Positions 2,539-37,510 are shown, counted from the first letter of the stretch. The stretch: 64,000 nt of DNA from Dehalococcoidia bacterium (GCA_965248515.1 CBDFJU010000003.1:975254-1039253); one strand, 5' to 3'. Numbers and translations: made by a program. Notes: generated from the sequence alone by a model not told the origin.

Positions 2539-2811
2539 ATGAGACAGACCTGTGAAGGGTGCGGCAGGGAGTTCAGGGGCGAGGGTGGCTTAACTTGGCA
2601 CCGGGATCGGGCACATAGCCAGGAGCGGGCAGAACCGAGCGCGGTGGAGCATACACACCACCCATGGACCGAGGCTTGCGTCATCGAGGGGTGTGAACAC
2701 GAGGCCGAGTCCTTCTATGTCGGTGAGCCGTCGATGGTCACCCAGTGCGATGGAGGGCATATCGCTGTCGAGCCGGTTCGACTGAGACGGAGTAGGACAG
2801 GAGAGCTGTGA
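2539..2811 (+). CDS. Small C2H2-type zinc-finger-like protein.
   Basis: CEGCGREFRGEGGLTWHRDRAH fits C-x2-C-x12-H-x4-H. A second Cys/His cluster follows (CVIEGCEHE...CDGGH). Its 3' third is duplicated downstream of the SDR gene. Confidence 0.45.
   Translation: MRQTCEGCGREFRGEGGLTWHRDRAHSQERAEPSAVEHTHHPWTEACVIEGCEHEAESFYVGEPSMVTQCDGGHIAVEPVRLRRSRTGEL
2691..2795 (+). repeat. Imperfect direct repeat, copy 1 (~100 bp), covering the zinc-finger gene 3' end.
   Basis: tgtgaacacgaggccgag...gagccggttcgactgagacgg vs copy 2 at 3642-3746, ~75% identity. Encodes CEHEAESFYVGEPSMVTQCDGGHIAVEPVRLR vs CEHEVDAIYVDEPSVVMRCQVGHVAVEPVRLR. Confidence 0.55.
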
Positions 2812-2863: not shown

Positions 2864-3640
2864 GTGAGACTCAAAGACAGGGTCGCGGTTATCACCGGAG
2901 GAGGCTCCGGGCTGGGCCGGGCGACAGCCCTCGCCTTCACCCGCGAAGGGGCCCGCTGCGTGCTCGTTGGGCAGAACGAGGAGAGATTGGCCGAGAGTGT
3001 GCGGTTGATCGAGGAGGCGGGCGGGCAGGGCCTTGCGGCGCCCTGCAACATCGCCGAACCGGAGCGCGTTCAGGCCATGATCGAACTCACCGTCGCTACC
3101 TTTGGGCGGCTCGACATCCTGGTGAACAATGCCGCCATGAACCGGCCCGACGATATGCCATCCGAGCGCGTCGCAGAGATGACCGAAGAGTGGTGGTCGG
3201 CGACCCTCGGCGTCAATCTCAGCGGCTGCTTTTATTGCTCCAAGTACGCCCTGCAACAGATGGCCACCACCCAGAGCGGCGTCATCATCAATGTCGTCTC
3301 GACGGTGGGGCTGATCGCGAACCCGGGCGTAGCGGCATACGTGGCCTCCAAGCACGGCGTCGTCGGCCTGACGAAGGCTATGGCCGTCGACTACGGCCCC
3401 CACGGCATTCGGGTCAATGCCATCTGCCCCGGTGCTTTCGAGTCGGAGCGGATGGAGCGCTACATGAACTTGTACGGCGATGCTAATTGGCGCCAGACAT
3501 TCGGACAGGCAAGACCGCTGCGGCGCATTGGTAGCCCCGCTGAGGTGGCCAACGTGGCCATCTTCCTCGCATCGGACGAGGCGTCGTACGTTACCGGGGC
3601 CATCATCCCCGTGGACGGCGGCAGCATGGCAGGCGGTTAG
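2864..3640 (+). CDS. SDR-family NAD(P)-dependent oxidoreductase.
   Basis: TGGGSGLG Rossmann motif, NNAA, YxxxK (YVASKHG). GTG start with a GGGAGGA RBS. Confidence 0.85.
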   Translation: MRLKDRVAVITGGGSGLGRATALAFTREGARCVLVGQNEERLAESVRLIEEAGGQGLAAPCNIAEPERVQAMIELTVATFGRLDILVNNAAMNRPDDMPSERVAEMTEEWWSATLGVNLSGCFYCSKYALQQMATTQSGVIINVVSTVGLIANPGVAAYVASKHGVVGLTKAMAVDYGPHGIRVNAICPGAFESERMERYMNLYGDANWRQTFGQARPLRRIGSPAEVANVAIFLASDEASYVTGAIIPVDGGSMAGG

Positions 3641-3641
3641 G

Positions 3642-3746
3642 CTGTGAACACGAGGTCGACGCCATATACGTTGATGAGCCGTCGGTGGTCATGCGGTGCC
3701 AGGTAGGGCATGTGGCTGTTGAGCCAGTGCGACTACGTGGACACCG
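3642..3746 (+). repeat. Imperfect direct repeat, copy 2, immediately after the SDR stop.
   Basis: See copy 1. The two copies flank the SDR gene. Confidence 0.55.
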
Positions 3747-7556: not shown

Positions 7557-7802
7557 GTGCCGGAGGCAGTGCTCGCGGGGACTTTTAGGCATTGGGGGCT
7601 GACCCGCTGGCTCGCCATCCGTCGGACGGGAGATTGGTGGCATTACGAGCCAGACATAATTCACGAAATCGCTCAATTTGGTAGAGATTTCACAGCCGGT
7701 CTCGATCCTGAGGTACAGGCAAGATTCGCCTACCGTAACGCAGTTGAGATGCTGGGCCTTTCGCTTGACCGAGACGAAAAGGGGAGCCCCGCCGGTGGTT
7801 GA
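7557..7802 (+). CDS. Possible amidohydrolase-2 C-terminal fragment or small ORF.
   Basis: The ending ...ARFAYRNAVEMLGL resembles amidohydrolase-2 C-termini (compare 48062-49192, ...NVRAVYRMEG). Short, no clear RBS. Confidence 0.25.
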   Translation: MPEAVLAGTFRHWGLTRWLAIRRTGDWWHYEPDIIHEIAQFGRDFTAGLDPEVQARFAYRNAVEMLGLSLDRDEKGSPAGG

Positions 7803-7935
7803 CGAGGCCCCCCTTTTGGTGCCGCACTGTTAGGCAACTACTTTTTCTTGCCAGCGTTATCCGCGGCCTTGCTCTTGTCGTTGTACGCCTTCTGCAGACC
7901 TGGTGCACTGTCAATGCCCTTGCCAGGGACGCCGG
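7775..7935 (-). repeat. ~160 bp direct repeat, copy 1: shared 3' coding tail plus 3'UTR of secreted-protein gene A.
   Basis: Near-identical to 9258-9425: ggagccccgccggtggttgacgaggcccccc.tttggtgccgcactgttaggcaactactttttcttgccagcgttatccgc.gccttgctcttgtcgttgtacgccttctgcagacc... Confidence 0.7.
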
Positions 7936-8855
7936 TATTTTTCAGGCCATCGGCCTTGCTGCAATTAATCCCGCCGGAGGGACCCGCCCCACCGCCGTAC
8001 CACACGACGCCATCCAAATCTGGTCCAACATTTGCGACGACGCCGTTTGAGCCGTCGGGGCTTGAACCAGAGGATCTCTCCGTTGTTCAAAGCTACATAG
8101 AAGAAGCCAGAGGAGTCGGCGGTCATACCTTCGGGGAAGACTGTTGCGAACAGGACTGACTTTGTACCAAATTCGTCGATCTTGGTTACCTGACTGGCAG
8201 GGAGGTGCTCACTTACGTAGGTGTTTCCATCTTGGTCTATCTGAATCCCTACCGGTTGGTCTAGCTCTGCCGCGAGCGTGCTCACACCGCCGGTGGAGTT
8301 CCGCACAACGACCTCTCCCGGAAGCCAGTCCGCCACATGCAGGTCCCCTGTGAGCGGATTGGTAGCAAGCCCAAGCGGAGTTTCGACCTCGGCTGAAGCG
8401 CTGCTCAATAGCTTGCTGAACGGGCCGGTACCCCCTCCAGACGGAATCTGCCAGACGTTACCCGTTCTAGTGAAGGTCGTCTCAGCCGCTAGCAGGTCAC
8501 CGCCGCAATCGAATAGTAGGGCAGTCTGACCCCCGGAATTGACGGGCAAGCCAGTGGCGTAAGCGCTCGCCGTTGCATCTGCTTGGTATCGAACGATTTT
8601 CCCCTCGGGCGCCGATGCGTAGTAAAGCTCTCCCCCGAAGAATGCCAATCCTGGGGAGAGGCCCCCCAACGTAGGGGCAAAAAGGGACACTCCCGTACTT
8701 AGCGGCGTACCGTCGACATCCCTTGACAGAGTGACTTCATATATGCCTCCGCTCTGTGCTGAGGCATAAAGGGTGTCCGCCGGAAAACCAGACTGAGCTG
8801 TGCCTGTACCTGCAGCTAGGACCAGCCAAAGAACAGTAACCGAAACAGCGGCCAC
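7840..8855 (-). pseudogene. Secreted NHL-repeat/beta-propeller-like protein (gene A), frameshifted at a CCCC run near 7990.
   Basis: Signal peptide MAAVSVTVLWLVLAAGTGTAQS and an NHL-like DQPVGIQIDQDGNTYVSE. The last ~50 codons (…DGSNGVVANVGPDLDGVVWYGGGAGPSGGINCSKADGLKNTGVPGKGIDSAPGLQKAYNDKSKAADNAGKKK) are in the +1 frame relative to the listed ORF. Confidence 0.6.
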
Positions 8856-9002
8856 TACACTAAGCCGTAGGGCGGTTCCCCGCCTTGCGATGGCCGTTTC
8901 TGACGTTGTGACGCCTCCATCATGTACCCTCCGAGCCTCAGCTGTAGCAAAATCTCCGACGCCTCATGTAGGCGCGAAGAATAACAGCAAAGCCATCGGA
9001 TC

Positions 9003-9255
9003 ACATCACCCGAACGGGTGAGTTTTGAGACCAGGTTCACCTCGGCATGGAAGACGCTATCTGGTGGGGCCCACCCACGCTCAACCTCCTCGCGCCGGTC
9101 CCCAGGTCCGCCGGTACTCGCCTTCGCCGCGCCGCCCTAGACCTTGGGCCCTCGCCGCCTCGGCGCGGGAGCGCTGGCAGCTGTTGAAGGACCGGCGGCG
9201 ATCACTAGACCTGGGGGCGATCTGGGCGGTAGAGGCTCTGCACCTTTGACAGACA
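9003..9255. repeat. Conserved non-coding element R1 (~250 bp). One of three related copies.
   Basis: Shares blocks with R2 and R3: atcacccgaaNgggtgag hairpin (GNRA-like loop), cctcgcgccg.tcccca, gccttcg.cgcgccgccct, gctggcag.tgttgaaggaccggcggcg..ca.tggacctg. Confidence 0.6.
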
Positions 9256-9257
9256 CA

Positions 9258-9425
9258 GGAGGAGCCCCGCCGGTGGTTGACGAGGCCCCCTTTTTGGTGC
9301 CGCACTGTTAGGCAACTACTTTTTCTTGCCAGCGTTATCCGCAGCCTTGCTCTTGTCGTTGTACGCCTTCTGCAGACCCGGCGCATTATCTAAGCCTTCG
9401 CCAGGAACGCCACTATCTTTCAGGA
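9258..9425 (-). repeat. ~160 bp direct repeat, copy 2: shared 3' coding tail plus 3'UTR of secreted-protein gene B.
   Basis: See copy 1 at 7775-7935. Confidence 0.7.
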
Positions 9426-10050
9426 TTTCGGCCTTGCCCGCTTCTGGGTCCACAAAAGTTCTGAAATCGAGGTCATAACCGCCATTGAACCAGCTAGGAG
9501 ACTCAAACCTTGTGTAGCCATCGCCAGCCCCGTAGGGGTTGCCAATACCAGCTCCTAATGCGTAGAACCCACCTGCAACGGGTTGCCGCAGCACGATTGC
9601 CAACACTTGTCCGGCGCTAACGCTGACCCCAAAGCCACTTACATCAATACTGAGGAACGGCGGCGGGCTGCCAGAGACGTTGACGGACACGTCCGCAGCC
9701 GGGACCGTGACGCTCGCCAACGTATCCGAATCGTCCTCGATGGGAGCCCCCCCGGTTGTGCGGCGAACATCGACCAGCAATGGTGCTCCGCCGATCCTCC
9801 CGGCCCTCACCTGGACCTCCGTCAGAAGTCCATCCAGTCCGACTGTGAACGTCTGGGCTGCATCTGCTCCTCCCCCAACGATAGGTCCAATAGTACCGCT
9901 ATCGAACTCCTGGTCGAGCTGAGACGCTGCGTGCACAACTCCGGTGCTCCAGCTCTGAGTGAGGAGAGCCCCTGCCAGCAGCAGTGCCAGCAGAATCCCC
10001 ATTGCCCTCTTCGACCTTGTGATCGCGGTTGTCACGATTCCCTCCACCAC
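9316..10050 (-). CDS. Secreted hypothetical protein (gene B). Shares its C-terminal tail with gene A.
   Basis: Sec-type signal (RSKRA n-region, ILLALLLAGALL h-region, VHA|AS). Gly/Ser/Val-rich. Ends ...PGLQKAYNDKSKAADNAGKKK. Confidence 0.6.
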   Translation of the reverse strand: MVEGIVTTAITRSKRAMGILLALLLAGALLTQSWSTGVVHAASQLDQEFDSGTIGPIVGGGADAAQTFTVGLDGLLTEVQVRAGRIGGAPLLVDVRRTTGGAPIEDDSDTLASVTVPAADVSVNVSGSPPPFLSIDVSGFGVSVSAGQVLAIVLRQPVAGGFYALGAGIGNPYGAGDGYTRFESPSWFNGGYDLDFRTFVDPEAGKAEILKDSGVPGEGLDNAPGLQKAYNDKSKAADNAGKKK

Positions 10051-10110
10051 TCCAGAATTGCTTCCATCCCCGTGTCAGCGAGTGCGAATCTGGGCAAGGT
10101 ATACCACGGA

Positions 10111-10370
10111 TGCCATGGCGACGCATCACCCGAAAGGGTGAGCTCGGACGATTGGCGCGGTAGCGCCGCCTGGCAAGGCCGCCATCGGCCTCGACGTCCT
10201 CGCGCCGCTCCCCAGTCCGCCACTAGCCGCCTTCGACGCGCCGCCCTCGCCCCTGGCCTCGTCGCCTGGGCGTGGGAGGGCTGGCAGTCGTTGGAGGACC
10301 CTGGCGACCATTGGACCTGGTGACTTCGCCCTCGTTGACGCCTAGGGCTATCCTGGCCACATGAGGTGAG
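10111..10370. repeat. Conserved non-coding element R2, between divergent genes B (-) and C (+).
   Basis: Aligns with R1 and R3. Ends ...ttgacgcctagggctatcctggccacatgaggtg about 20 nt before the gene C ATG. Confidence 0.6.
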
Positions 10371-10388
10371 ACTGAAGGCCCTGCACAC

Positions 10389-11477
10389 ATGGCTTGGTAC
10401 GACGAAGTAAATGCTACCTGGAAGCAGGTCGGCCTCGAAGTAGGAGCTGAGTTCCAGTTCCAGAGAAGCCATGGAGTTCCGAGTATCCGGAGGAAGGGGA
10501 AACGCGCACATATTTACGAGGGGAAGCTAGTCCGAAGAACAGAGGAGTGGACCCTCACGCTGGAATACAAAGCGGTGGCGGAAATCGAATACGACGACTT
10601 CAACGAGTTCCACACCACGACCACGATGAAAGCTGGTGCGAACACGGAGAACGCTCACACCTGGATCGGCAGTCGTGGCGAACGAGTGTTTCTGAAGGAA
10701 GTGTCGAAGGAAGAAGCCCCGAGGCTCTTGCGGGCATTGATGGGACCCAATTGGATGCTCCCGATCAAGGATCATGACGAGTTGGTGGCCTTGTTCAGAA
10801 GTTCTGAAGATACTCTGGCGGAGCTAGAAAACCGAGAAGAATCGTCAGGCCCCGAAACGGAACGGGCCGAACGTCGGAGAGAACTGCTCGATGACACTAG
10901 ACGGCTGTTGAGCGCTAGGGTCGTTAAACATGAAAAGGAAGCAGCTGATGAGGACCAGCGGCTGCGCGACTGGCATATGGTGCGCAAAGGGAAACTTCTC
11001 GATGAAGCCCGGAGGCTGTGCGTTAGGTTTGCCGGCTTCGGGATGGATGCCCGAGTCTTGGAGCGAGCTCCCGCTCCGGACGACAAAGATTCGGTGTATG
11101 GGTGGATCGAGATACCCGAAGGCCCGATACGGTGGGTATTGGTGAACGACGAGCCTCAAGAGTTCTTGACTTGCTGGATGGTGCCCGATCCGCGAATCAA
11201 ACTCGACTCTCCGTTCATTCTGGTCAATTCAAGCCCTGTGAAGTCGCGTCGCTTTTTGGGGCGCGTGACAGGAATCAGGTGGACCAGTTCCGATGCCGCG
11301 CTTGAGCCGACGGGGTTCAGCCAGCGCGTCGCAGCCACACTCGATGACGCTACGGCTGCTACTCAGCGTGAAGTGTCAAGTAAAGCCGTCGGTTCATGGG
11401 CTGAGACAGACCCGGCCCGTGGATGTTGGGCGATCCTAAATGACAAGGGCACGACGAAGTGGACAGGCGCTCTTTGA
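10389..11477 (+). CDS. Hypothetical protein (gene C). Its C-terminal region shares a GPIRWV...PDP domain with the 11558 gene.
   Basis: Long ORF with conserved R2 upstream. No recognisable motifs except similarity to the neighbouring paralog. Confidence 0.55.
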   Translation: MAWYDEVNATWKQVGLEVGAEFQFQRSHGVPSIRRKGKRAHIYEGKLVRRTEEWTLTLEYKAVAEIEYDDFNEFHTTTTMKAGANTENAHTWIGSRGERVFLKEVSKEEAPRLLRALMGPNWMLPIKDHDELVALFRSSEDTLAELENREESSGPETERAERRRELLDDTRRLLSARVVKHEKEAADEDQRLRDWHMVRKGKLLDEARRLCVRFAGFGMDARVLERAPAPDDKDSVYGWIEIPEGPIRWVLVNDEPQEFLTCWMVPDPRIKLDSPFILVNSSPVKSRRFLGRVTGIRWTSSDAALEPTGFSQRVAATLDDATAATQREVSSKAVGSWAETDPARGCWAILNDKGTTKWTGAL

Positions 11478-11557
11478 CAGTACTATCAGGCAATTGCCGA
11501 CGCCTTGCTGGCGATGCCCATGCCCGGTAAGGAGTAGTCGGCGGACCGAAGGGAGAT

Positions 11558-12220
11558 ATGGTCTTGTTTGGCAGGCTCAAAGAGAAGTTGCGAAATCACG
11601 CCAGGGATGAAGTATGTGCAGCTCTCGAAGCTGTAGGTGTCCAGGCGAGGATGGCTCCCCGCGGCCATTCCGAAGAAGAAATCACGCGGGGTCATGGAAA
11701 ATCCTTCGGTGTCATCGATGTAGCTGCAGGACCCATCCGCTGGGTCGGTGTCAAGAGTCAACGTGAGGACAGTGGTGATTACGACATCCCTGATCCCATG
11801 GTCTGGTACACGGAGTATGGTGTTCCAGATTCCAGGCTTGGTCCTAGCTTTCCAGAGGTACGCATTGCATCACAGAAAACTTTTAGCGTTTTTCCTTGGG
11901 GAAAGTGGAAACATTTCGTGCCGCACCCAGGAAAAGACGTTGACGAGATGTTCACAGGCTATGACTTTGGTCTAGGGGTAATTGGTCGTCTGTCCATCGA
12001 TGTGTCGCTGCGTGAACCCATCAGGGAATCCCGTCGGATAGAAATAGAGGCGTACCCGAAACATCACTGTTGGGTAATATCAAGTCGCTACGTGAATGAC
12101 GGTTTCGACATGCCTCGGATGTGGAAGGGTCGGACAGTTGCGCCCTCACCTCAACAATGGGATGCCTACCAGGCGATAGCCCGCCATCTGCTCGAAACTC
12201 CGGTTCCACTTAATACATAG
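11558..12220 (+). CDS. Hypothetical protein, paralogous domain to gene C.
   Basis: GVIDVAAGPIRWVGV...DIPDP vs gene C WIEIPEGPIRWVLV...MVPDP. Confidence 0.5.
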   Translation: MVLFGRLKEKLRNHARDEVCAALEAVGVQARMAPRGHSEEEITRGHGKSFGVIDVAAGPIRWVGVKSQREDSGDYDIPDPMVWYTEYGVPDSRLGPSFPEVRIASQKTFSVFPWGKWKHFVPHPGKDVDEMFTGYDFGLGVIGRLSIDVSLREPIRESRRIEIEAYPKHHCWVISSRYVNDGFDMPRMWKGRTVAPSPQQWDAYQAIARHLLETPVPLNT

Positions 12221-12329
12221 GGGGCTGTGCCTATCTTCGCTAACCCGGGTGGCGGAGCCCCACTAAAAAGCTGAAGGCCACATAAGTTCGTATCTTCCCC
12301 CTTGCCCGGGGAGACGTAGCAGTTCGGCG

Positions 12330-12532
12330 GTAATGATACGCGGCTCGCCCCACCCTCGAAGTCGCCGCTGACCCTTGCGACGTCCTTGCTCAGCTCCGCC
12401 GTGTTCGTGACCGAGCCCTTGGCCTCGCCGCCTAGGCGCGGGAGCACTTACAGTGGTTGAAGGACCGGCGGCGTTCATTGGACCTGACCGCTCCATACGT
12501 TGACGCCGTGGCTATCCTTGCCACATAAGGTG
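12330..12532. repeat. Conserved non-coding element R3, upstream of the 12561 gene.
   Basis: Core ...ggcgcgggagcacttacagtggttgaaggaccggcggcgttcattggacctga...ttgacgccgtggctatccttgccacataaggtg aligns with R1 and R2. Confidence 0.6.
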
Positions 12533-12560
12533 CTTTTCGCCGATGCAGGTTGCTCGTTAG

Positions 12561-13223
12561 ATGTCTAGCTCCCGCGACTCAAAAGCCGATCGTGCTTCAG
12601 CAGATAAGGCGTTGGAAGGGGCGCAGCTGCTTGCTGCGGGCGACTATCAGGGAGCTATCGCCGCTTGTAACGAGGCCATCAAGTTATACCCAGGAAGCGT
12701 AGGCGCGCACCGTACCCTGGTAGAAGCATACCGGCGTCTGGGCGAGAACATCCCAACACACGCGGCCGGTGATGCTTTCGAGGAAAGACCAGCAGATTTG
12801 TCGCCTTTTCTTTCATCCGACGTGGGGGGAGGCATCTTCGTTGGGCTATTGATCATAGTTATCGGGGTTGTTGCGGCGCTGGTGAGTGGTTCGGGATGGC
12901 TCTTGTTACTAGTTGGAGGGTTCGGGGCGTTTGTTCTGCTATGGAGTATCTGGGACGGAATCAGAATGAAACAAGACATATCCTCCGGTTCGGTTGAGCT
13001 GCATGGAACGCTTAGCCGCTGTGGCGTCCTTGCCGGCAGCCGCCGTGGACCTGGCCGAACCGACGGCCTCAGCGTCGCCTCTCGACGCGCCTCGCAGACA
13101 CCACCGGAGCGGCAATCTTCATCAGCCCTGGAGTACTTGCCAATGTCGGAATCGCCGATGACAATTGCGCCTCGGGAACAGGAGCATGGCCGCGACTGCG
13201 CTGAACCTTCTTCCGCCGGGTGA
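12561..13223 (+). CDS. TPR-like N-terminal domain protein with two transmembrane helices.
   Basis: AIAACNEAIKLYPGSVGAHRTLVEAYRRLGE (TPR-like), then GGIFVGLLIIVIGVVAALV and WLLLLVGGFGAFVLLWSIW hydrophobic helices. Confidence 0.5.
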   Translation: MSSSRDSKADRASADKALEGAQLLAAGDYQGAIAACNEAIKLYPGSVGAHRTLVEAYRRLGENIPTHAAGDAFEERPADLSPFLSSDVGGGIFVGLLIIVIGVVAALVSGSGWLLLLVGGFGAFVLLWSIWDGIRMKQDISSGSVELHGTLSRCGVLAGSRRGPGRTDGLSVASRRASQTPPERQSSSALEYLPMSESPMTIAPREQEHGRDCAEPSSAG

Positions 13224-14018: not shown

Positions 14019-15545
14019 CTATCCATCTCCAACACCTTTGGTCTCTGGCGGGGGTTCCCGGCGCTCCAACTTCCACGTGGCGACACCCGCGTGGGCGTCC
14101 TCTCCAGCCCTATGGATGCGGTAGGGGTCGATCACACGGCCCTTCATCCTGCCCAGCGCCTGACCGAAACGAGTTCGAGCAGCAAGGTCGTCACGTCCTT
14201 GCCAGAGCTCGAGGAGCAGTTCCCGACGGGTGACGATGCCGAACAAGTCTCTCGCGGGGATCTCGGTATCGCCGAACTCTTCCCACCACGCCGTGCAGAA
14301 CTCGCGCCACGGCTCGATCTCGGCTTCGGCGGCCTCGTAGACCCGATCCACGTTGCCGAGGAAGCCGCCGACTCCGACCACTTCGAGGATGCCGCCCATG
14401 ACCCTGGCCCACTTCTCGAAGCTTCCCAGGGACCGTCGGCCCGCTGGCTGGCCCGCTGCGAACCAGGCTCTGATCAGAGTAAGCGCCGCCCAGATCAAAT
14501 CGCCGCGGTGATCCAGGGCCCAAGCGCGAAGGTCCGGGTGCTTGAAGTCCTCCCGCTCCCACGGCTTTTCCATCGAGGGGTCTAGGCGAATCGCGATTGT
14601 GCGCCGGGCAACCTCTACCGATAGAGAAGGGTTGTTGGCCGTGGCGATCCATATCGCGCCGTTGGGTAGCGTGACGGTACGGCTGGCCCCAAGAAGCCGA
14701 TCCTCCCAGAGGGAGGCGGTCAACGCAGCAGAGAGAGCACCTGAGTCCAGGCCCCGCCGGACATTGTCGATCAGGATGAACTGAGGACCCTGCAGCAGTT
14801 TGGACGTGATCCTCTTTCGTGTCTCGTCCTCATCCCGGGCTTCAGTCATGACGGGGAGATTGCCACCTGTCGCCGGGATCGTCAGCACGTCGGCCAGTAG
14901 TCCTTTCCCACTCCCGGGAGTGGCCGACTCGATGAGGTGCAAAGGGACGAGGTCTATCAACGTCCTCACAAAGGGCAAGAGGAGCAAGGAAACAGCGTGG
15001 GCCCGGTCAGCGTCGCTGGCGAAGGGGAAGTCGCCCAAGAGGTCATCCATGATGAGCCGGAGCGCCGCAGCGATGTCGTCTTGGTCTGGCTCGTCGGGGA
15101 CGTCGGGGACCTGCACCCAGGTGAGCGGGTCGAGATAAAAACTCGTGCCAGGGTCGTAGCCGGGCCGGAGCGTGAGGTCGCCGTTGGGAGCGAATACTGG
15201 AGCCCCGCTGACGCCTCGGAGCCGCGGCACCGGTTTGACCTTTCTCACAAGCATGTCGTCGAGCACGTCGTTCGGGGGTCGAGCCGGCACCAGGCCTCCT
15301 TGTCGGGTCCACTTCATGAAGTCGGCAATCTTGTCGAGGTGGCTCTTCAGGATGACCTTCTTGACCTCTCGCATTCTGGTGTGGTCTCCATCACCGGCGC
15401 GTGTCAGGTCGACCAATAGCTCCCCGTGTCGGAAGAGCGTCGGCGGATCGTTGGTCTCTTGAACTGTAAGCCAGGTAACGGAAGCGAGGTCGCGCAGGAA
15501 CTCGCCGGTAATCTCGATCTGCCTTCGAGGCGGAGGGGTCGTCAT
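14019..15545 (-). CDS. P-loop NTPase of the phage/plasmid primase C-terminal (P4/D5/VirE-like, SF3 helicase-type) family.
   Basis: Walker A ESATPGSGKG, Walker B-like FILIDNV, N-terminal ~180 aa non-P-loop domain. RBS GAGGAGGACC. Confidence 0.6.
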   Translation of the reverse strand: MTTPPPRRQIEITGEFLRDLASVTWLTVQETNDPPTLFRHGELLVDLTRAGDGDHTRMREVKKVILKSHLDKIADFMKWTRQGGLVPARPPNDVLDDMLVRKVKPVPRLRGVSGAPVFAPNGDLTLRPGYDPGTSFYLDPLTWVQVPDVPDEPDQDDIAAALRLIMDDLLGDFPFASDADRAHAVSLLLLPFVRTLIDLVPLHLIESATPGSGKGLLADVLTIPATGGNLPVMTEARDEDETRKRITSKLLQGPQFILIDNVRRGLDSGALSAALTASLWEDRLLGASRTVTLPNGAIWIATANNPSLSVEVARRTIAIRLDPSMEKPWEREDFKHPDLRAWALDHRGDLIWAALTLIRAWFAAGQPAGRRSLGSFEKWARVMGGILEVVGVGGFLGNVDRVYEAAEAEIEPWREFCTAWWEEFGDTEIPARDLFGIVTRRELLLELWQGRDDLAARTRFGQALGRMKGRVIDPYRIHRAGEDAHAGVATWKLERREPPPETKGVGDG

Positions 15546-16986: not shown

Positions 16987-17844
16987 GTGAGTCTGATGCC
17001 GAAATCTTTGACGGCGGTCACTTTTGACGATTTCGTGACCAACGTCGATGGCACCAATGGCCACCGGCGCTTCGACCTATCGGACTACGAGTTCGTCACC
17101 CCAGGCGGGATGGTACTGCCCGCCTTAGCCATTCGCCAAGCTTGCTCGTCCGGCACCACTCCCGTGCTCACTGTCCCAAACGCCAACATGCGGTCGTACC
17201 TCGCCCGAGCCGGATTTCTTAAGCACCTAAGCGATAGAGCCCAGATTGAACCGCCGCACACATCGAGTGAGGACCTTCCCTTTGATGTTCGCCGGGGCCA
17301 GAACCCGCTCTTACTCGAGATCACAGTGCAAACCGAGGCCGGCGACCTTCCTGAAATAATTGACAGAGTGATATGGGTTCTTCGTCGACGCATGAGCTAT
17401 CGAAAGTCTGACGCTTTTGACATAGGCATCGTGATCTCGGAGATTTGGCAAAACGCGTTCGACCACACTAATGGTCCGGTCACGACAATCGCGGCGATGC
17501 AAGTCTACGGCTCGCCGGGGAACGGTCGTCTAGAGATGGCGATCGGTGACGATGGGGACGGTGTGTTAAGCAGTCTCAGAAGGAATCCGACTCTGCCCCG
17601 CTTCGCCACCGACACGAAAGCGATTCGAGATGCCATCAAGCTGAACGTGTCAGAGCACGACGATCGGACGCGAGGCCATGGCCTCGCGCTGTTGGTCGAC
17701 AAAGTGTTCTCCCATGACGGTGCGGTTACCATACGCTCCGGGCGTGGGAAAGTGCACATCCGGATGGATAAGGGGCAGGGTTGGGCTTATCAGGTTCCTC
17801 ACCTTAGCGGCACCCAAGTCGTGGTTAATTTACCCACAGAATAG
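16987..17844 (+). CDS. GHKL-superfamily ATPase (HATPase_c, anti-sigma-factor/RsbW-like Ser kinase fold) with an N-terminal ~130 aa sensor-like domain.
   Basis: N-box-like IVISEIWQNAFDHT, G1 AIGDDGDGV, G2 GHGLALLVDKVF. A sigma70-like promoter lies upstream (TTGCAA-17-TAGTAT). Confidence 0.65.
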   Translation: MSLMPKSLTAVTFDDFVTNVDGTNGHRRFDLSDYEFVTPGGMVLPALAIRQACSSGTTPVLTVPNANMRSYLARAGFLKHLSDRAQIEPPHTSSEDLPFDVRRGQNPLLLEITVQTEAGDLPEIIDRVIWVLRRRMSYRKSDAFDIGIVISEIWQNAFDHTNGPVTTIAAMQVYGSPGNGRLEMAIGDDGDGVLSSLRRNPTLPRFATDTKAIRDAIKLNVSEHDDRTRGHGLALLVDKVFSHDGAVTIRSGRGKVHIRMDKGQGWAYQVPHLSGTQVVVNLPTE

Positions 17845-17861
17845 CGTCAAGGAGGAGCAAT

Positions 17862-18410
17862 ATGCCTGTAGCCGTCGGACCGAAGTTCCGACTCGCGGAG
17901 TACGGTCGGCAACTGTGGACCCGAGAGAGGGCCAGAGAGATCCGAGGTGAACTTGAAGCCCTGCTTCAGGCCGTTGAATCCGGAACAGTCGTCGTTTTGG
18001 ATTGCACTGATGTCGAAGTGTTTGACTATTCATTTGCGGCCGAATTGTTCGGTGTGACTCTCTTGAAACTACCCATTGAGTATCCGGACCGTTATCTGAT
18101 AATCGCGGGTCTCACTCCTTATACAAGAGAGAACCTCCATGCAGCGTTGGAAGCGGGAGGGGTGATGGCACTTGAGCGGAAGTCCTCGAAGGTCGAACTC
18201 CTAGGCAAGTTCTCCCCAAGCGACGAGGAGACTCTCGCTACGCTCCGCAAGTCTCGCCAGTCCCTAAGCGCGGCTGACGTGGCAAGGAAACTAAATATCA
18301 AACTGACCGCGTCGAACGAGCGCCTCGTAAAGTTGGCGCGAGCTGGCCTGGTTCGCCGCGAACGAGCCCTGGAAGGCCGAGCTCAGCAGCTCTACGCTGC
18401 AGTCCCCTGA
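17862..18410 (+). CDS. STAS-like (DUF4325-type) domain fused to a C-terminal winged HTH.
   Basis: VVVLDCTDVEVFDYSFAAELFGV (STAS-like) and LSAADVARKLNIKLTASNERLVKLARAGLVRRE (wHTH). RBS AAGGAGGAG. Confidence 0.6.
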   Translation: MPVAVGPKFRLAEYGRQLWTRERAREIRGELEALLQAVESGTVVVLDCTDVEVFDYSFAAELFGVTLLKLPIEYPDRYLIIAGLTPYTRENLHAALEAGGVMALERKSSKVELLGKFSPSDEETLATLRKSRQSLSAADVARKLNIKLTASNERLVKLARAGLVRRERALEGRAQQLYAAVP

Positions 18411-19147: not shown

Positions 19148-19495
19148 ATGGCGGTAGCCGTCCGGTTCCCGACGCCCTTGTTTGATCGTGTGTGGGATCA
19201 CCTACTCCTCTCCGACACGGAGGAGGCGGCATTCCTCATGGCTGATTATCGCCTCAATGATCAGGGGGGTATATTTGTCGTGTCCGATTTGTATCTAATC
19301 GGACCTGACGACTTTACGTTCCAGTCGAGTTTTCATCTAAGCCTCGCGGACGAAACACGGGTCGCTGTAATCAAGTGGGCGTGGCAACTGGGAGGGTCTC
19401 TGATTGAAGTTCATGCTCATCGGGGGCCGCAGCAAGCCATGTTCTCACATAGCGATATGTATGGCTGTCGATGTCCAGCGATTATGTCCGCCTAA
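19148..19495 (+). pseudogene. JAB/MPN (JAMM) domain protein, N-terminal part (BilC-like), interrupted by IS insertion.
   Basis: JAMM-like motif E-x-HAH-x8-S-HS-D (LIEVHAHRGPQQAMFSHSD). Ends at a TAA that lies inside the IS target duplication. Confidence 0.6.
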
Positions 19496-19496
19496 G

Positions 19497-21062
19497 TGGT
19501 CAGGGAAAATGTCCATCTAGGCCGCTGTCATACCATCGGACTGTGATACGCGGGACCTGCCCCTGGTGCGCATCATGGGCGGGCTCTTGGCTTCGGCGTA
19601 CTTGCGGACCGTGTTCCTGTGGATGCCCAACTCCCTGGCGATTGCCCGAATGGCGAGGCCCCGAAGCTTAGCCTGCTGCACGGCCTTCCACCGGACCCTC
19701 TGTCGCGGCGTGGGTTTCCTGCGTGGCGATGCCGGAGGCTTGCAAACTCTGCCGCCGCCGTTCAATGTGGCGCTGTCGGCCTCGATGGCGTCGAGGGATG
19801 CCAAGCTCTCCTTGGAGTGGCTGCCCACGCCGTTGACCCTACGCTCAAGGCCGGGGCCATATCGGAGAGGACCATTGGAGGCACGGAGAACTCCAGGGCG
19901 CGGCGGCGCCTCCTGTGTGGGGATCGTGCGTCCCCGGTACTGCACGAGGAGCTGACCGTCCAGGCCCTCATGGACCTCCAGCTGCGCTCCGGCGTAGCTA
20001 GGCCGCTCCTTACCAGGCAGCAGCTGCAAGGTACGCCAGTTGTACTTGACGGTGTTGTCCCTGGCCACCTTGCGGCGGTGCTTGAAGCAGAGTATCTGGT
20101 CCAGGGACACCGATGACTCCATAGAGCGGTAAGCAACGCTTGAGTGCTCTGCCGGAACCCCGAACTTCTCGTTGAAGCGCGGCAGGAAGCGGTGCAGGAC
20201 TTCATTGGCCTCGTCGATGGTGGTGACGCCCGCCAAGCGCAGCTCGGTCACCAGCCGGTCCTGGAATGTCCCCGCCGTCCGCTCGACCCGGCCCTTCGCC
20301 TGCGGTGACCTGGCGAATATCTGGCGTATCCCCAGCTCCTCCATGGCGCGGGCGAACTGGGTTGGCCCGGCCGGCTTCTGGCGAGGCTCTCCAGTATGCT
20401 TGAAGACCGCGTGTCGGTCGCTGTAGACGGCCAGCGGTATCCCGCATTGCCGGATCAACCCCTCCATGAGAAGGAAGTAGCCGCGGGTGTCCTCCTCCTG
20501 GCTGAACAGAGCGTCAGGCACAGTGCCGGTGGCGTCGTCCACGGCCAACAGCAGGACGAACCGGGGTCCTTGTTCCCCCAGCCACCGATGGTGGCTCCCA
20601 TCTATCTGCAGCAGCATCCCTTCTTGGGCCATGCGTTTGCGCCGGACACGGTGTCTGGGCGGCCGGCGGCGGCGGGGGCTGTCCACGCCGGCGCTGACCA
20701 GGATGCGGCGCACCGTAGAGCGGCTCAGGTCGATCCCCTCCCGTTCCATCAACAACTCGGTCAGATGCGTATGGTTCGTTCCAGCGTAGCGAGTGCGGGC
20801 CAGCTGCACCACGTAAGTCATCTTGGTCTCCGTCGTGGTGTTGGCCGGTCGGCGGCCACGATTCCCGTGGGCGAGTGCGGCGGCGCCCTCCTTCCTCTAG
20901 GCCGCCAGAATACGCCTCATGTGGCGTTCGCTCACTCCCAGGACCTCGGCCGCCTGACATACCGGCACCTGATCTGCCAGAACGCTGTTGAGCACCTGAA
21001 GTCTCGTCTGCTCCTTCTGCGTCAATGTCACTCCTTCCATGGGATGACATTTTCGCTGACCA
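19497..21062 (-). mobile_element. IS481/ISNCY-like insertion sequence (~1.57 kb) with ~17 bp inverted repeats, inserted in the JAB gene.
   Basis: Ends TGGTCAGGGAAAATGTC... and ...GACATTTTCGCTGACCA. Flanking taag|IS|(g)ttag looks like a 4-5 bp duplication with one mismatch. Confidence 0.7.
19517..21040 (-). pseudogene. DDE transposase (IS481/ISNCY-like) with an in-frame TAG (minus strand, 20899-20897) where the family consensus has Tyr.
   Basis: N-terminus MEGVTLTQKEQTRLQVLNSVLADQVPVCQAAEVLGVSERHMRRILAA*RKEGAAALAHGNRGRRP..., then DDE core LLQIDGSHHRW...LLLAVDDATG...AVYSDRHAVF. Confidence 0.65.
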
Positions 21063-21063
21063 G

Positions 21064-21309
21064 TTAGCTACTGACATAATCGTAGAACAACGACAGTATG
21101 GCCTCCAAGAATTTGTACCTCACGCCCGGTGGCAGCTCGGTGGGCGTCCGTATGCTGCCCTGGTCGTAGCCGAGGATTCGTACGATGGTCTCGCCTGGGT
21201 TGATGAATCGGGAAATCCTCAGGCAATCGAGATCATCATGATCGACGACAAGGTCCTAGATGCCACGGGGCTCACTTTCACAGCGCTGAAGAAGCGTCGC
21301 TATGAGTAG
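21064..21309 (+). pseudogene. JAB/MPN domain protein, C-terminal part, displaced by the IS. Overlaps the E1 start.
   Basis: In frame with the N-terminal part once the IS and one duplication copy are removed (…PAIMSA-L-ATDIIVEQRQYGLQEF...KKRRYE*). Its stop overlaps the E1 ATG. Confidence 0.55.
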
Positions 21310-22157: not shown

Positions 22158-22310
22158 TCACGATCGATGAGATGCTAACTCCCGTTCCAGCACGAAGCGG
22201 AACTGGGGTTTTGAGAAACCGCGCTCACAAGACCTGTCAAGTATCATTGGCACACGAATCGCCAATCCCCTTGCTATAATCCGCACACTCCGTGGACGCC
22301 GCGAGACCCA

Positions 22311-37220: not shown

Positions 37221-37264
37221 CCTCCTGTTCCCTGTTGCACCCCTGTACCTTTTTGTGTTACGGT

Positions 37265-37510
37265 TTGACGGTACGTATCAATCGCGGAGACGGGGAGTAG
37301 TAGAGGAAACCGGGTCCCGTGAGAGTCGGGGGTCGGAGCGACCCGACGGCACAGGTCCTTGAACTCGCCCCCGAGCGACCGGGCTGAAACTCGAGTAGGT
37401 CCGGCGGGCAAGCCCGTTACAGCGAACGAGAGCTCCGCTTCTGGCGGGGAACAAGGGTGGTACCGCGGGATGCAATCCCGTCCCTTAACGCAGGGGCGGG
37501 ATTTTTTGGT
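37265..37510 (+). promoter_or_regulatory. T-box riboswitch leader upstream of ilvB.
   Basis: T-box sequence aacaAGGGTGGTACCGCGgga at 37450-37470, followed by a terminator hairpin atcccgtccc/ggggcgggat plus a T-run (37475-37509). Possible CUC specifier (gaaCUCg). Confidence 0.6.

What the first reader, a model, noticed from the sequence alone, without database searches (positions are those of the whole stretch)
9003..12532. Three copies of a ~250 bp conserved GC-rich non-coding element (R1 9003-9255, R2 10111-10370, R3 12330-12532) in an island of uncharacterised genes
The copies share long blocks at ~75-85% identity but no conserved ORF. R1 and R2 begin with a 6 bp stem / 4 nt loop hairpin (tcacccGAAAgggtga, GNRA-like). 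R2 and R3 end with TTGACG-N17-(C)ACATRAGG about 20-30 nt upstream of a plus-strand gene start. A related cctacatgaggcg lies upstream of gene A on the other strand. Candidates are a structured 5' leader or sRNA, a shared regulated promoter cassette, or a MITE-like element.
Basis: seen in the sequence. Interest (0 to 1): 0.65.

Follow-up and report, generated by a model that had tools for sequence, protein, structure and literature searches.

The report
Triplicated mosaic intergenic promoter region
Three related stretches of non-coding DNA lie between genes of a decaying mobile-element island; they are patchwork copies of a promoter-bearing intergenic region, not a recognisable RNA gene or transposon, and the finding is real but fairly ordinary.

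Summary
The repeat is real: three copies, all on the + strand, and none elsewhere in the 64 kb window. It is not one 250-bp element. It is a mosaic of three modules.

1. Left module (R1 and R2 only). It holds the palindrome TCACCC-N4-GGGTGA and a minus-strand TGn-TANNNT -10 box. The same module lies upstream of genes of this secreted-protein family in two unrelated metagenome contigs, so it is that family's own promoter/operator.

2. GC-rich core of about 135 nt (73-74% GC, against 52-59% in the flanking genes). About 78 nt of it is shared by all three copies at 75-80% identity. I found it nowhere else.

3. Right module (R2 and R3 only): CGTTGACGCC...GGCTATCCTKGCCACATRAGGTG, 20-30 nt upstream of plus-strand genes C and E.

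The core shows no Rfam match, no excess folding stability, no significant covariation, no conserved ORF or codon periodicity, and no terminal inverted repeats or target duplications.

The setting is a variable island with two IS elements (one transposase carries an in-frame stop), broken genes and a truncated phage primase. A related genome carries different mobile DNA at the same site.

Best reading: locally duplicated and recombined divergent promoter regions, close to "putative mobile promoters". The core is probably a shared upstream regulatory segment. A relic without function is the main rival. Interest is low to moderate.

The parts
8974..9022 (-). R1 left module: the promoter/operator region of minus-strand gene A. 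It holds the palindrome TCACCC-GAAC-GGGTGA (9006-9021) and, on the minus strand, TGT-TATTCT (a -10-like box).
   Evidence: It is 71% identical to the R2 left module over 49 nt (family D5). Window 9004-9041 is 84% identical to L004 1684-1726, upstream of P0055. Alignment.
9023..9079 (.). R1 spacer. It is not homologous to the R2 spacer. Its first ~19 nt still match the upstream region of L004.
   Evidence: Local alignment is no better than shuffles (p = 0.97). L004 match.
9080..9216 (+). R1 GC-rich core (73% GC): a C-rich 5' half and a G-rich 3' half around the small hairpin CGCCG-CCT-CGGCG.
   Evidence: Pairwise identities.
10094..10142 (-). R2 left module: the promoter/operator of minus-strand gene B. 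It holds the palindrome TCACCC-GAAA-GGGTGA (10126-10141) and, on the minus strand, TGG-TATACC at 10098-10106. Gene B's start is probably the GTG at 10035, preceded by a GGAGGG Shine-Dalgarno sequence.
   Evidence: L006 7895-8459 aligns with window 10142-9577 at 70% identity, and the match ends exactly at the outer edge of the palindrome. Alignment.
10190..10322 (+). R2 GC-rich core (74% GC).
10333..10368 (+). R2 right module: CGTTGACGCCTAGGGCTATCCTGGCCACATGAGGTG, 21 nt upstream of the gene C start codon at 10389.
   Evidence: R2 against R3 right modules score 46, where the best shuffle reaches 21. Sequence.
12378..12488 (+). R3 core. The part shared by all three copies is 12411-12486. A weaker left extension reaches 12378.
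   Evidence: (families D2, D3).
12498..12532 (+). R3 right module: CGTTGACGCCGTGGCTATCCTTGCCACATAAGGTG, 29 nt upstream of the gene E start codon at 12561. A 5-codon ORF (12543-12560, MQVAR*) ends directly against that ATG.
7783..7959 (-). D1a: a conserved C-terminal tail (...GLQKAYNDKSKAADNAGKKK) plus an intrinsic terminator, at the 3' end of gene A. The tail is in a different reading frame from the main gene A ORF.
   Evidence: 90% identical to D1b. Translation. Terminator fold z = -3.7.
9261..9437 (-). D1b: the same tail plus terminator at the 3' end of gene B, lying directly against R1. The terminator's U-tract is replaced at the junction 9260/9261.
   Evidence: 82-85% identical to L004 2665-2844.
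7965..8926 (-). Gene A: a secreted NHL/beta-propeller-like protein, apparently broken by frameshifts near both ends.
9316..10035 (-). Gene B: a secreted protein of a family whose other members often end in PEP-CTERM.
10389..11534 (+). Gene C: function unknown. It has an in-frame TGA at 11475-11477 that homologues read through.
11558..12220 (+). Gene D: a paralogue of the C-terminal domain of gene C.
12561..13223 (+). Gene E: a TPR plus transmembrane protein. Only its first ~60% has homologues.

Best explanation
R1, R2 and R3 are paralogous, rearranged copies of a divergent intergenic control region. They arose by local duplication and illegitimate or homologous recombination inside a decaying mobile-element island. 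They are not an RNA gene or a transposon. Each copy is a patchwork of three modules.

**Left module.** This is the native promoter/operator of a family of secreted-protein genes (A and B here).
- It has a sigma-A-type -10 box of the TGn-TANNNT kind on the minus strand.
- The 16-bp palindrome TCACCC-N4-GGGTGA is centred about 42 bp upstream of the inferred transcription start. That is the position where a dimeric activator usually sits when it replaces a weak -35 box.
- *Inferred:* the palindrome is a protein-binding site and not an RNA hairpin.

**Right module.** This is the proximal promoter/5' UTR segment of plus-strand genes C and E.

**GC-rich core.** It lies between the two modules and upstream of both promoters.
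- *Inferred:* it is a shared upstream regulatory segment that puts the neighbouring genes under common control. It has spread with, or next to, these promoters in the manner described for "putative mobile promoters".

**Shown:** the mosaic structure; conservation of the left module in other genomes; absence of the core from those genomes; the failed tests for RNA, ORF and MITE.

**Inferred:** promoter activity, the transcription starts, protein binding, and any function of the core.
For: **Module structure**
- Each flanking module is present exactly where a gene lies on that side. The left module is in R1 and R2 (genes A and B on the minus strand). The right module is in R2 and R3 (genes C and E on the plus strand).

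**Left module**
- It is conserved upstream of family genes in L006 (collinear from the palindrome into the gene, 70% over 580 nt) and in L004 (84% over 43 nt, palindrome duplicated in tandem).
- All four sequences have a TANNNT hexamer 18-20 nt from the palindrome.
- The one promoter in the window anchored by a known RNA, the T-box leader, is TTGCAC-N18-TGT-TACGGT. This organism therefore uses TGn-TANNNT.
- In L004 the half-site TCACCC and the flanking GATGC are kept, while the other half decays (GGGGGA, GAGGGA) with no compensating change. That fits a protein site better than an RNA stem.

**Right module**
- The R2 and R3 right modules are highly similar (score 46, where the best shuffle reaches 21).
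- They precede genes whose aligned coding sequences are not paralogous.

**Core**
- The core keeps 75-80% identity, while the 40-57 nt on either side of it are unalignable.

**Rearrangement context**
- Breakpoints lie at hairpin edges: 10142/10143 and 9260/9261, where gene B's terminator loses its U-tract.
- The island holds two IS elements (one transposase has an in-frame stop), a nonsense codon in gene C, frameshifts in gene A and a truncated primase.
- The related genome L128 is collinear down to window position 22310 and then carries a terminase-like gene instead of the island.

**Comparison with putative mobile promoters**
- The regions -150 to -50 upstream of genes C and E are 79.2% identical over 72 nt. 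This is at the edge of the published criterion of at least 80% over at least 50 nt (PMC3575422).
Against: - **Promoter fit.** The consensus promoter scan called no sigma-70-type promoter inside any R copy. In the right module, TTGACG is 20-21 nt from the TANNNT-like TAAGGT/TGAGGT and only 8 nt from TATCCT, so no canonical -35/-10 pair exists there.
- **Composition.** A 73-74% GC segment is unusual for promoter-upstream DNA and for an island whose genes are 52-59% GC. No candidate regulator was identified.
- **Narrow distribution.** The core was found only in this window, so its conservation cannot be separated from recent common ancestry.
- **No uniform ancestry.** R1's right end and R3's left end show no statistically supported remnant of the missing modules. 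Descent of all three copies from one complete ancestral region is therefore not demonstrated.
- **Limited search.** The source genome outside the window could not be searched, so dispersed copies cannot be excluded.
Confidence: 0.5

Rival explanations
1. The core has no function. It is a leftover of successive local duplications, deletions and gene replacements in a decaying island, and its 75-80% identity only reflects the age of those events. Only the flanking promoter modules are functional.
For: - The copies are clustered within 3.5 kb, all in one orientation, and none lies elsewhere in the 64 kb window.
- The surroundings are full of broken genes and IS elements.
- Junctions fall at hairpin edges, as expected for illegitimate recombination.
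- No test gave any positive sign of function for the core.
Against: - The sequence immediately flanking the core is unalignable, while the core stays at 75-80% identity.
- The neighbouring coding sequences are unrelated (A against B) or only ~27% identical at protein level (C against D). Either the core is constrained, or it was copied on its own.
- Its GC content is 15-20 points above that of its neighbours, which plain decay does not predict.
Confidence: 0.25
2. The core, with the right module, is transcribed on the + strand as a structured cis-regulatory leader. It would lie upstream of gene C and between genes D and E. R1 would be an orphan sRNA-like copy that ends at the bidirectional terminator at 9262-9297.
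For: - All copies are in the same orientation as genes C and E.
- The C-rich 5' half and G-rich 3' half can form a long imperfect hairpin in each copy.
- In the small central hairpin, the C-to-T change in R2 keeps a G-U pair only on the + strand.
- Five predicted pairs show changes on both sides.
- The gene B terminator has an A-tract and a T-run, so it could also stop + strand transcripts coming out of R1.
Against: - No Rfam match at the gathering threshold or at E <= 10.
- Folding energies are no better than dinucleotide shuffles: z between -1.7 and +0.5 on both strands.
- Covariation measures are reached by 54 to 105 of 500 shuffles.
- Homologues of gene C (L001-L003) and of gene E (L127) have no such leader.
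- No promoter was found upstream of the core on the + strand.
Confidence: 0.12
3. The core is a small non-autonomous mobile element (MITE-like or REP-like) that inserts near promoters. Other copies would lie elsewhere in the genome.
For: - It is a discrete ~135-nt unit with sharp homology boundaries and unrelated flanks.
- Its composition is foreign to its surroundings.
- R1 has two perfect 9-nt inverted matches near its ends: 9100-9108 with 9208-9216, and 9093-9101 with 9189-9197.
- IS elements are present in the island.
Against: - The inverted 9-mers are subterminal, not nested, and poorly kept in R2 and R3 (and reading).
- There are no target-site duplications at any copy (reading).
- There are only three copies, all within 3.5 kb and all in one orientation.
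- There is no similarity to either IS in the window.
- Seeded scans of genome, metagenome and viral collections, and blastn of plasmids and phages, found nothing.
Confidence: 0.08
4. The repeats are fragments of a degraded protein-coding gene.
For: - GC content is as high as, or higher than, that of coding DNA.
- One + frame reads PRRLGAGALAAVEGPAA in R1 and PRRLGAGALTVVEGPAA in R3, and some of the differences are synonymous.
Against: - Every frame of every copy has stop codons, and the copies have indels that are not multiples of three.
- Substitutions are spread evenly over the three codon positions.
- The homologues of the neighbouring genes retrieved here give no tblastn match to the repeats.
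Confidence: 0.03

Closest known systems
Putative mobile promoters (Matus-Garcia, Nijveen and van Passel 2012; summarised in PMC3575422)
   Same: Highly similar non-coding sequence lies upstream of genes whose coding regions are not paralogous, within one genome. It is not tied to a recognisable transposon and has no Rfam match. The C/E upstream regions are 79% identical over 72 nt in the -150 to -50 window.
   Different: Identity is just under the published 80% cut-off. The copies are clustered in one 3.5-kb stretch of an island and are not dispersed. The shared part is a GC-rich segment between two divergent promoters, not an obvious promoter. Promoter activity has not been tested.
Promoter-carrying miniature repeats (Correia elements, ERIC, REPIN)
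   Same: These are short intergenic repeats that can supply promoters or terminators to neighbouring genes. This is from established knowledge, and they are cited in PMC3575422.
   Different: Those elements have terminal inverted repeats or paired palindromes, defined ends, often target duplications, and tens to hundreds of dispersed copies. None of these features is seen here.
Class II activator-dependent bacterial promoters (for example CRP/FNR-type sites centred near -41.5); applies to the left module only
   Same: A 16-bp palindrome is centred about 42 bp upstream of the inferred start and overlaps a weak -35 region next to a TGn-type -10 box. It is conserved in four promoters from three genomes.
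   Different: The half-sites (TCACCC/GGGTGA) match no consensus I can name. The transcription start is inferred only from the -10 box. No regulator is known.
Multigene families with conserved 5' and 3' flanks around variable gene bodies (cassette-type secreted or surface-protein loci)
   Same: Genes A and B, and P0055 and P0056 in other genomes, have unrelated bodies. They share the C-terminal tail, and A, B and P0055 also share the terminator, at 82-90% DNA identity. A, B, P0055 and P0006 share the upstream palindrome module.
   Different: There is no evidence of programmed switching, silent cassettes or a dedicated recombinase. The resemblance is one of architecture only.

Membership tests
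Any Rfam RNA family (riboswitch, leader, sRNA, ribozyme) | A covariance-model match at or near the family's gathering score. | tested here: not met
   The whole window at the gathering threshold gave only the T-box at 37278-37488. Positions 8800-12700 at E <= 10 gave no match on any R copy.
Structured cis-regulatory RNA (general) | A conserved secondary structure supported by compensatory changes and/or folding stability above background. | tested here: inconclusive
   Folding z-scores lie between -1.7 and +0.5 on both strands. There are 5 pairs with changes on both sides, but 54 of 500 shuffles reach that count. With only three sequences the power is low.
MITE / non-autonomous transposon | Terminal inverted repeats at the ends of the element. 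| tested here: not met
   Only subterminal, non-nested 9-mers are found in R1, and they are degraded in R2 and R3. The left hairpin belongs to the neighbouring gene's conserved promoter.
MITE / non-autonomous transposon | Target-site duplications flanking each copy. | tested here: not met
   There are no matching direct repeats at the core boundaries of R1 or R2. R3 has only a 6-nt CTGACC near both ends (reading). The GCCACATAAG pair at 12277 and 12520 is part of the conserved right module.
MITE / non-autonomous transposon | Multiple dispersed copies in the genome. | tested here: inconclusive
   There are no further copies in the 64 kb window. The rest of the source genome could not be searched. 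Seeded scans of public collections found nothing.
Putative mobile promoters (PMP) | At least 80% identity over at least 50 nt within -150 to -50 of the start codons. | tested here: inconclusive
   Gene C against gene E gives 79.2% over 72 nt, which is borderline. Gene A against gene B gives only the 19-nt palindrome in that window. The criterion is taken from PMC3575422.
Putative mobile promoters (PMP) | The downstream coding sequences are not paralogous. | tested here: met
   A against B, and C against E, show no DNA or tblastx similarity, apart from the shared C-terminal tail of A and B.
Integron attC site / gene cassette array | An imperfect palindrome bounded by RYYYAAC ... GTTRRRY, at the 3' end of promoterless cassettes, near an integron integrase. 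| tested here: not met
   Only R1 has a GCTCAAC match. GTTGAAG and GTTGGAG do not fit GTTRRRY (reading). No domain search of the island ORFs tested gave an integrase hit.
REP/BIME-type extragenic palindromes | A short (20-40 nt) palindrome present in many copies per genome. | tested here: not met
   TCACCC-N4-GGGTGA occurs twice in 64 kb, both times upstream of genes of one family. Its 45 matches in viral contigs are about what chance gives by my rough estimate, and the one with an extended alignment lies inside a phage gene.
Sigma-70/sigma-A promoter (left module) | A -10 hexamer TANNNT with a TGn extension, at a conserved position upstream of the gene. | tested here: met
   TGT-TATTCT (R1), TGG-TATACC/TACCTT (R2), TGG-TATACC/TACCCT (L006) and TATACT (L004) all lie 18-20 nt from the palindrome. 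The organism's T-box promoter has the same form. Promoter activity itself was not tested.
Sigma-70/sigma-A promoter (right module) | -35 and -10 hexamers separated by a 16-19 nt spacer. | tested here: not met
   The consensus scan finds none. TTGACG is 8 nt from TATCCT and 20-21 nt from TAAGGT/TGAGGT (reading).

The most novel reading that the evidence does not exclude
The ~135-nt GC-rich core might be a previously undescribed functional unit that is copied from one promoter region to another without the hallmarks of transposition. One possibility is a structured + strand leader or sRNA shared by the C-D and E-F gene sets. The other is a portable upstream control segment that rewires neighbouring, unrelated genes into one regulon inside a mobile island.
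Probability: 0.12. Interest if true: 0.55.

Novelty: new member of a known kind. Interest (0 to 1): 0.25.

Why it matters
If the reading is right, this is a compact worked example of promoter regions being reused and reshuffled as modules. Two ancient family-specific promoter modules and a younger GC-rich segment are recombined in different combinations in front of unrelated genes inside a mobile-element hotspot. That bears on how horizontally acquired genes become co-regulated. It does not open a long-standing question, and a specialist would not be surprised by it.

The more useful by-product is the secreted-protein family. Its upstream palindrome and its C-terminal tail plus terminator are conserved across genomes, while the gene bodies differ.

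Tried and rejected
**Searches for further copies**
- Exact-pattern scans found nothing real.
  - The core seed GGCGYGGGAGNNCTNNCAGNNGTTGRAGGACC gave 0 hits in the genome, metagenome and viral collections.
  - The seed from the D1 repeat (defined in the full report) gave 0 hits in genomes.
  - The looser seed CCTCGNCGCCTNGGCGNGGGAG gave 120 metagenome hits. None extended beyond the seed under the nhmmer profile, so they are chance matches.
  - Two more core seeds gave 0 hits in viral contigs.
  - The palindrome seed gave 45 viral hits, roughly the chance number by my estimate. The only one with an extended alignment lies inside a phage gene.
  - These scans need exact matches, and the known copies are only ~80% alike. 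Absence is therefore weak evidence.
- blastn of R1 against plasmids and of R2 against phages gave no match.
- The window's own contig could not be reached through exact-protein look-ups. A genome-wide copy count was therefore impossible.

**Upstream regions of homologues**
- The upstream regions of gene C homologues (L001-L003) and of the gene E homologue (L127) contain no R-like sequence.

**A fourth copy**
- The candidate at 13024-13080, upstream of gene F, beats shuffles (score 32). But GC-rich segments elsewhere in the window reach 32-36. I rejected it as not significant.

**Decayed missing modules**
- I tested whether R1 keeps a decayed right module and R3 a decayed left hairpin. Neither is statistically supported, so I dropped that version of the duplication story.

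**Other readings of the sequence**
- ECF-sigma and sigma-54 readings of the right module were rejected. The spacings are inconsistent between R2 and R3, or are wrong (reading).
- The attC reading was rejected because the core-site consensus is not met.
- Protein-coding readings were rejected.
- The fourth CYACATRAGG match, at 20915, lies inside the IS transposase reading frame and is coincidental.

**Taxonomy**
- An attempt to place the organism through tblastn against plasmids was uninformative.

Full report

Yes, with corrections.
- Repeat finding, MAFFT and blastn all show three direct copies on the + strand.
  - R1/R2: 80% over 135 nt (9080-9214 vs 10190-10320, E 1e-27).
  - R1/R3: 83% over 78 nt (9136-9213 vs 12411-12486).
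  - R2/R3: 77% over 122 nt (10249-10368 vs 12415-12532).
- An nhmmer profile of the three copies finds them at E 1e-62 to 1e-83. It finds nothing else in the 64 kb window.
- A window-against-itself blastn shows only two other repeat pairs.

**2. Anatomy: a mosaic, not one element**

Permutation tests on the sub-segments and pairwise identities define three modules.

*Left module* (R1 8974-9022; R2 10094-10142)
- It contains the palindrome TCACCC-N4-GGGTGA.
- It is present only in R1 and R2.

*Spacer* (47-57 nt, between the left module and the core)
- It is not homologous between R1 and R2 (p = 0.97).

*Core* (R1 9080-9216; R2 10190-10322; R3 12378-12488)
- About 78 nt is shared by all three copies at 75-80% identity.

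*Right module* (R2 10333-10368; R3 12498-12532)
- Its sequence is CGTTGACGCC..GGCTATCCTKGCCACATRAGGTG.
- It is highly similar between R2 and R3 (score 46, where the best shuffle reaches 21).
- R1's right end is no more similar to it than shuffled sequence (p = 0.25 and 0.85).

*Composition*
- The core is 73-74% GC in R1 and R2 and 67% in R3.
- The flanking genes are 52-59% GC, and the chromosome outside the island is 64%.

**3. The neighbouring genes**

- Genes A (7965-8926, minus) and B (9316-10035, minus) encode secreted proteins with unrelated bodies.
  - They share a 177-nt 3' block (D1a 7783-7959, D1b 9261-9437) at 90% identity.
  - This block encodes a lysine-rich C-terminal tail and a strong intrinsic terminator (fold z = -3.7 for D1a).
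- Gene A looks frameshifted near both ends.
- Gene C (10389 onwards, plus) has an in-frame TGA at 11475 that its homologues read through, as far as 11534.
- Gene D is a paralogue of gene C's C-terminal domain.
- Gene E (12561 onwards, plus) is a TPR plus transmembrane protein. Only its first 60% has homologues.
- The left module is therefore present where a minus-strand gene lies to the left (R1, R2). The right module is present where a plus-strand gene lies to the right (R2, R3).

**4. Evidence from other genomes**

- Homologues of gene B led to three metagenome contigs.
- In L006, DNA homology to the window runs from the palindrome through the gene (70% over 580 nt). It stops exactly at the outer edge of the palindrome, window position 10142.
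- In L004, an unrelated secreted protein (P0055) carries three shared pieces.
  - The upstream palindrome, twice in tandem, is 84% identical to R1 over 43 nt.
  - The C-terminal tail and the terminator are 82-85% identical to D1.
- All four upstream regions have a TANNNT hexamer 18-20 nt from the palindrome, mostly preceded by TGn.
- The T-box promoter in the window is TTGCAC-N18-TGT-TACGGT, so this organism uses that type of -10 box.
- With that -10 box, the palindrome is centred near -42. This is an inference.
- In L004 one half-site and the adjoining GATGC are kept, while the other half decays without compensation. That argues for a protein-binding site and against an RNA stem.
- The left module is thus the ancestral promoter/operator of this gene family. 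It is not part of a mobile unit.
- The core and the right module are absent from L004 and L006. They are also absent from the upstream regions of gene C homologues (L001-L003) and of a gene E homologue (L127).

**5. Tests on the core**

- RNA family: no Rfam match at the gathering threshold or at E <= 10.
- Folding stability: z-scores lie between -1.7 and +0.5 on both strands.
- Covariation:
  - RNAalifold proposes a long hairpin with five pairs changed on both sides.
  - 54 of 500 shuffles do as well.
  - Three sequences cannot settle this question.
- Coding: every frame has stops, the indels are not multiples of three, and substitutions are spread evenly over codon positions.
- Mobility:
  - There are no terminal inverted repeats at the homology boundaries.
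  - There are no target duplications.
  - The copies are clustered and in one orientation.
- Wider distribution:
  - Seeded scans of the genome, metagenome and viral collections found nothing beyond chance seeds.
  - blastn of plasmids and phages also found nothing.
  - Exact-pattern scans are insensitive for copies that are ~80% alike.

**6. Context**

- The window between roughly 4 kb and 22.3 kb is a lower-GC island. It contains:
  - an IS3-family element;
  - a second IS, with 49-nt inverted repeats and an in-frame stop in its transposase;
  - a 508-aa ORF that matches only the C-terminal part of phage primase/polymerase profiles;
  - a truncated ThiF-like gene.
- A related genome from a JGI metagenome (L128) is collinear with window 44012-22310 at 82-84% identity. 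It then continues into a terminase-like gene instead of the island.
- The site is therefore a hotspot for mobile DNA, and the R copies lie in lineage-specific material.
- Two junctions fall at hairpin edges.
  - One is 10142/10143.
  - The other is 9260/9261, where gene B's terminator stem is intact but its U-tract is replaced by the right flank of R1.

**7. Interpretation**

- The most economical reading is that these are rearranged paralogous copies of a divergent control region.
  - The left and right modules are promoter-proximal segments of the genes they face.
  - The core lies upstream of both.
- The core is kept at 75-80% identity, while the DNA immediately around it is unalignable and the neighbouring genes are unrelated.
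  - Either it is under constraint, most simply as a shared upstream regulatory segment, or it was copied on its own.
- The closest described concept is the "putative mobile promoter" (PMC3575422).
  - The C/E upstream regions are 79.2% identical over 72 nt in the defining window.
  - That is just short of the 80% criterion.
- I give this reading about 0.5. The rivals are a functionless relic at 0.25, a + strand leader or sRNA at 0.12, a MITE-like element at 0.08 and degraded coding sequence at 0.03.
- Weak points are the lack of a canonical -35/-10 pair in the right module, the unusually high GC content of the core, and the absence of any comparative or expression data for the core.

**8. Verdict**

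- The feature is real but modest: a new instance of reused or duplicated promoter regions in a decaying island.
- The palindrome module and the tail-plus-terminator module of the secreted-protein family are the best-supported functional parts.
- The function of the core remains inferred.

Noticed in passing
window 7783-7959 and 9261-9437; L004 2665-2844; L005 3139-3258: A ~40-residue lysine-rich C-terminal tail (...SGVPGxGLDNAPGLQKxxNxKSKAAxNAGKKK) ends otherwise unrelated secreted proteins in this genome and in two metagenome contigs. One of those contigs is only 48% GC. In the window copies and in L004 the tail is followed by the same strong intrinsic terminator. It matched no Pfam or NCBIfam model here. 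It might be an undescribed sorting or anchoring signal.
   Followed up: partly
window 11475-11534: Gene C has an in-frame TGA at 11475-11477. Its homologues P0002 and P0004 align through it to a conserved C-terminus (YYQAIAxALLAMP) that ends at 11534. This is either a nonsense mutation or read-through.
   Followed up: partly
window 7838-8926: Gene A appears to be broken by frameshifts. The conserved tail lies in another frame (7838-8017), and an N-terminal stretch from the ATG at 8926 is cut off by a stop before the signal-peptide core.
   Followed up: partly
window 19465-21096: An IS element is bounded by ~49-nt inverted repeats (19465-19513 and 21046-21096). Its transposase reading frame is interrupted by a TAG within RILAA*RKEG.
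   Followed up: partly
window 2689-2783 and 3640-3734: A 95-nt direct repeat (78% identity) flanks the short-chain dehydrogenase gene at 2864-3640, as if the gene had been inserted with a duplication. Alternatively, the two repeats are remnants of a disrupted minus-strand gene.
   Followed up: no
window 37278-37488: A T-box leader (Rfam RF00230, 118.7 bits) lies upstream of the acetolactate synthase/ilv-leu gene cluster. Its promoter is TTGCAC-N18-TGT-TACGGT, at 37235-37264.
   Followed up: partly
window ~22310; L128 21214-21842: Synteny with a related metagenome genome (82-84% identity) ends at window position 22310. The relative then has a terminase-large-subunit-like gene, so this site is an integration hotspot.
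   Followed up: partly
window 14019-15545 (minus strand): This 508-aa ORF matches only the C-terminal ~480 positions of 865-1229-position phage profiles, one of them annotated DNA polymerase/primase and the two stronger ones of unknown function. It is probably a truncated replication gene of a degraded mobile element.
   Followed up: partly
window 16987-18410: Adjacent genes encode a histidine-kinase-like ATPase and a DUF4325 (STAS-like) protein with a helix-turn-helix domain. The ATPase has a weak PADLOC match to DrmA.
   Followed up: no
window 12543-12563: A five-codon ORF (ATG CAG GTT GCT CGT TAG) starts 10 nt after the AAGGTG of the R3 right module. Its stop codon directly abuts the gene E ATG, which might allow translational coupling. 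It is not conserved in R2.
   Followed up: no
window 10389-13223; P0002, P0004: Genes C, D and E look like separated pieces of one modular protein family. In other genomes the TPR and/or transmembrane N-terminus (as in gene E) is fused to the domains of gene C. Gene D repeats only the C-terminal GPIRWV domain.
   Followed up: partly
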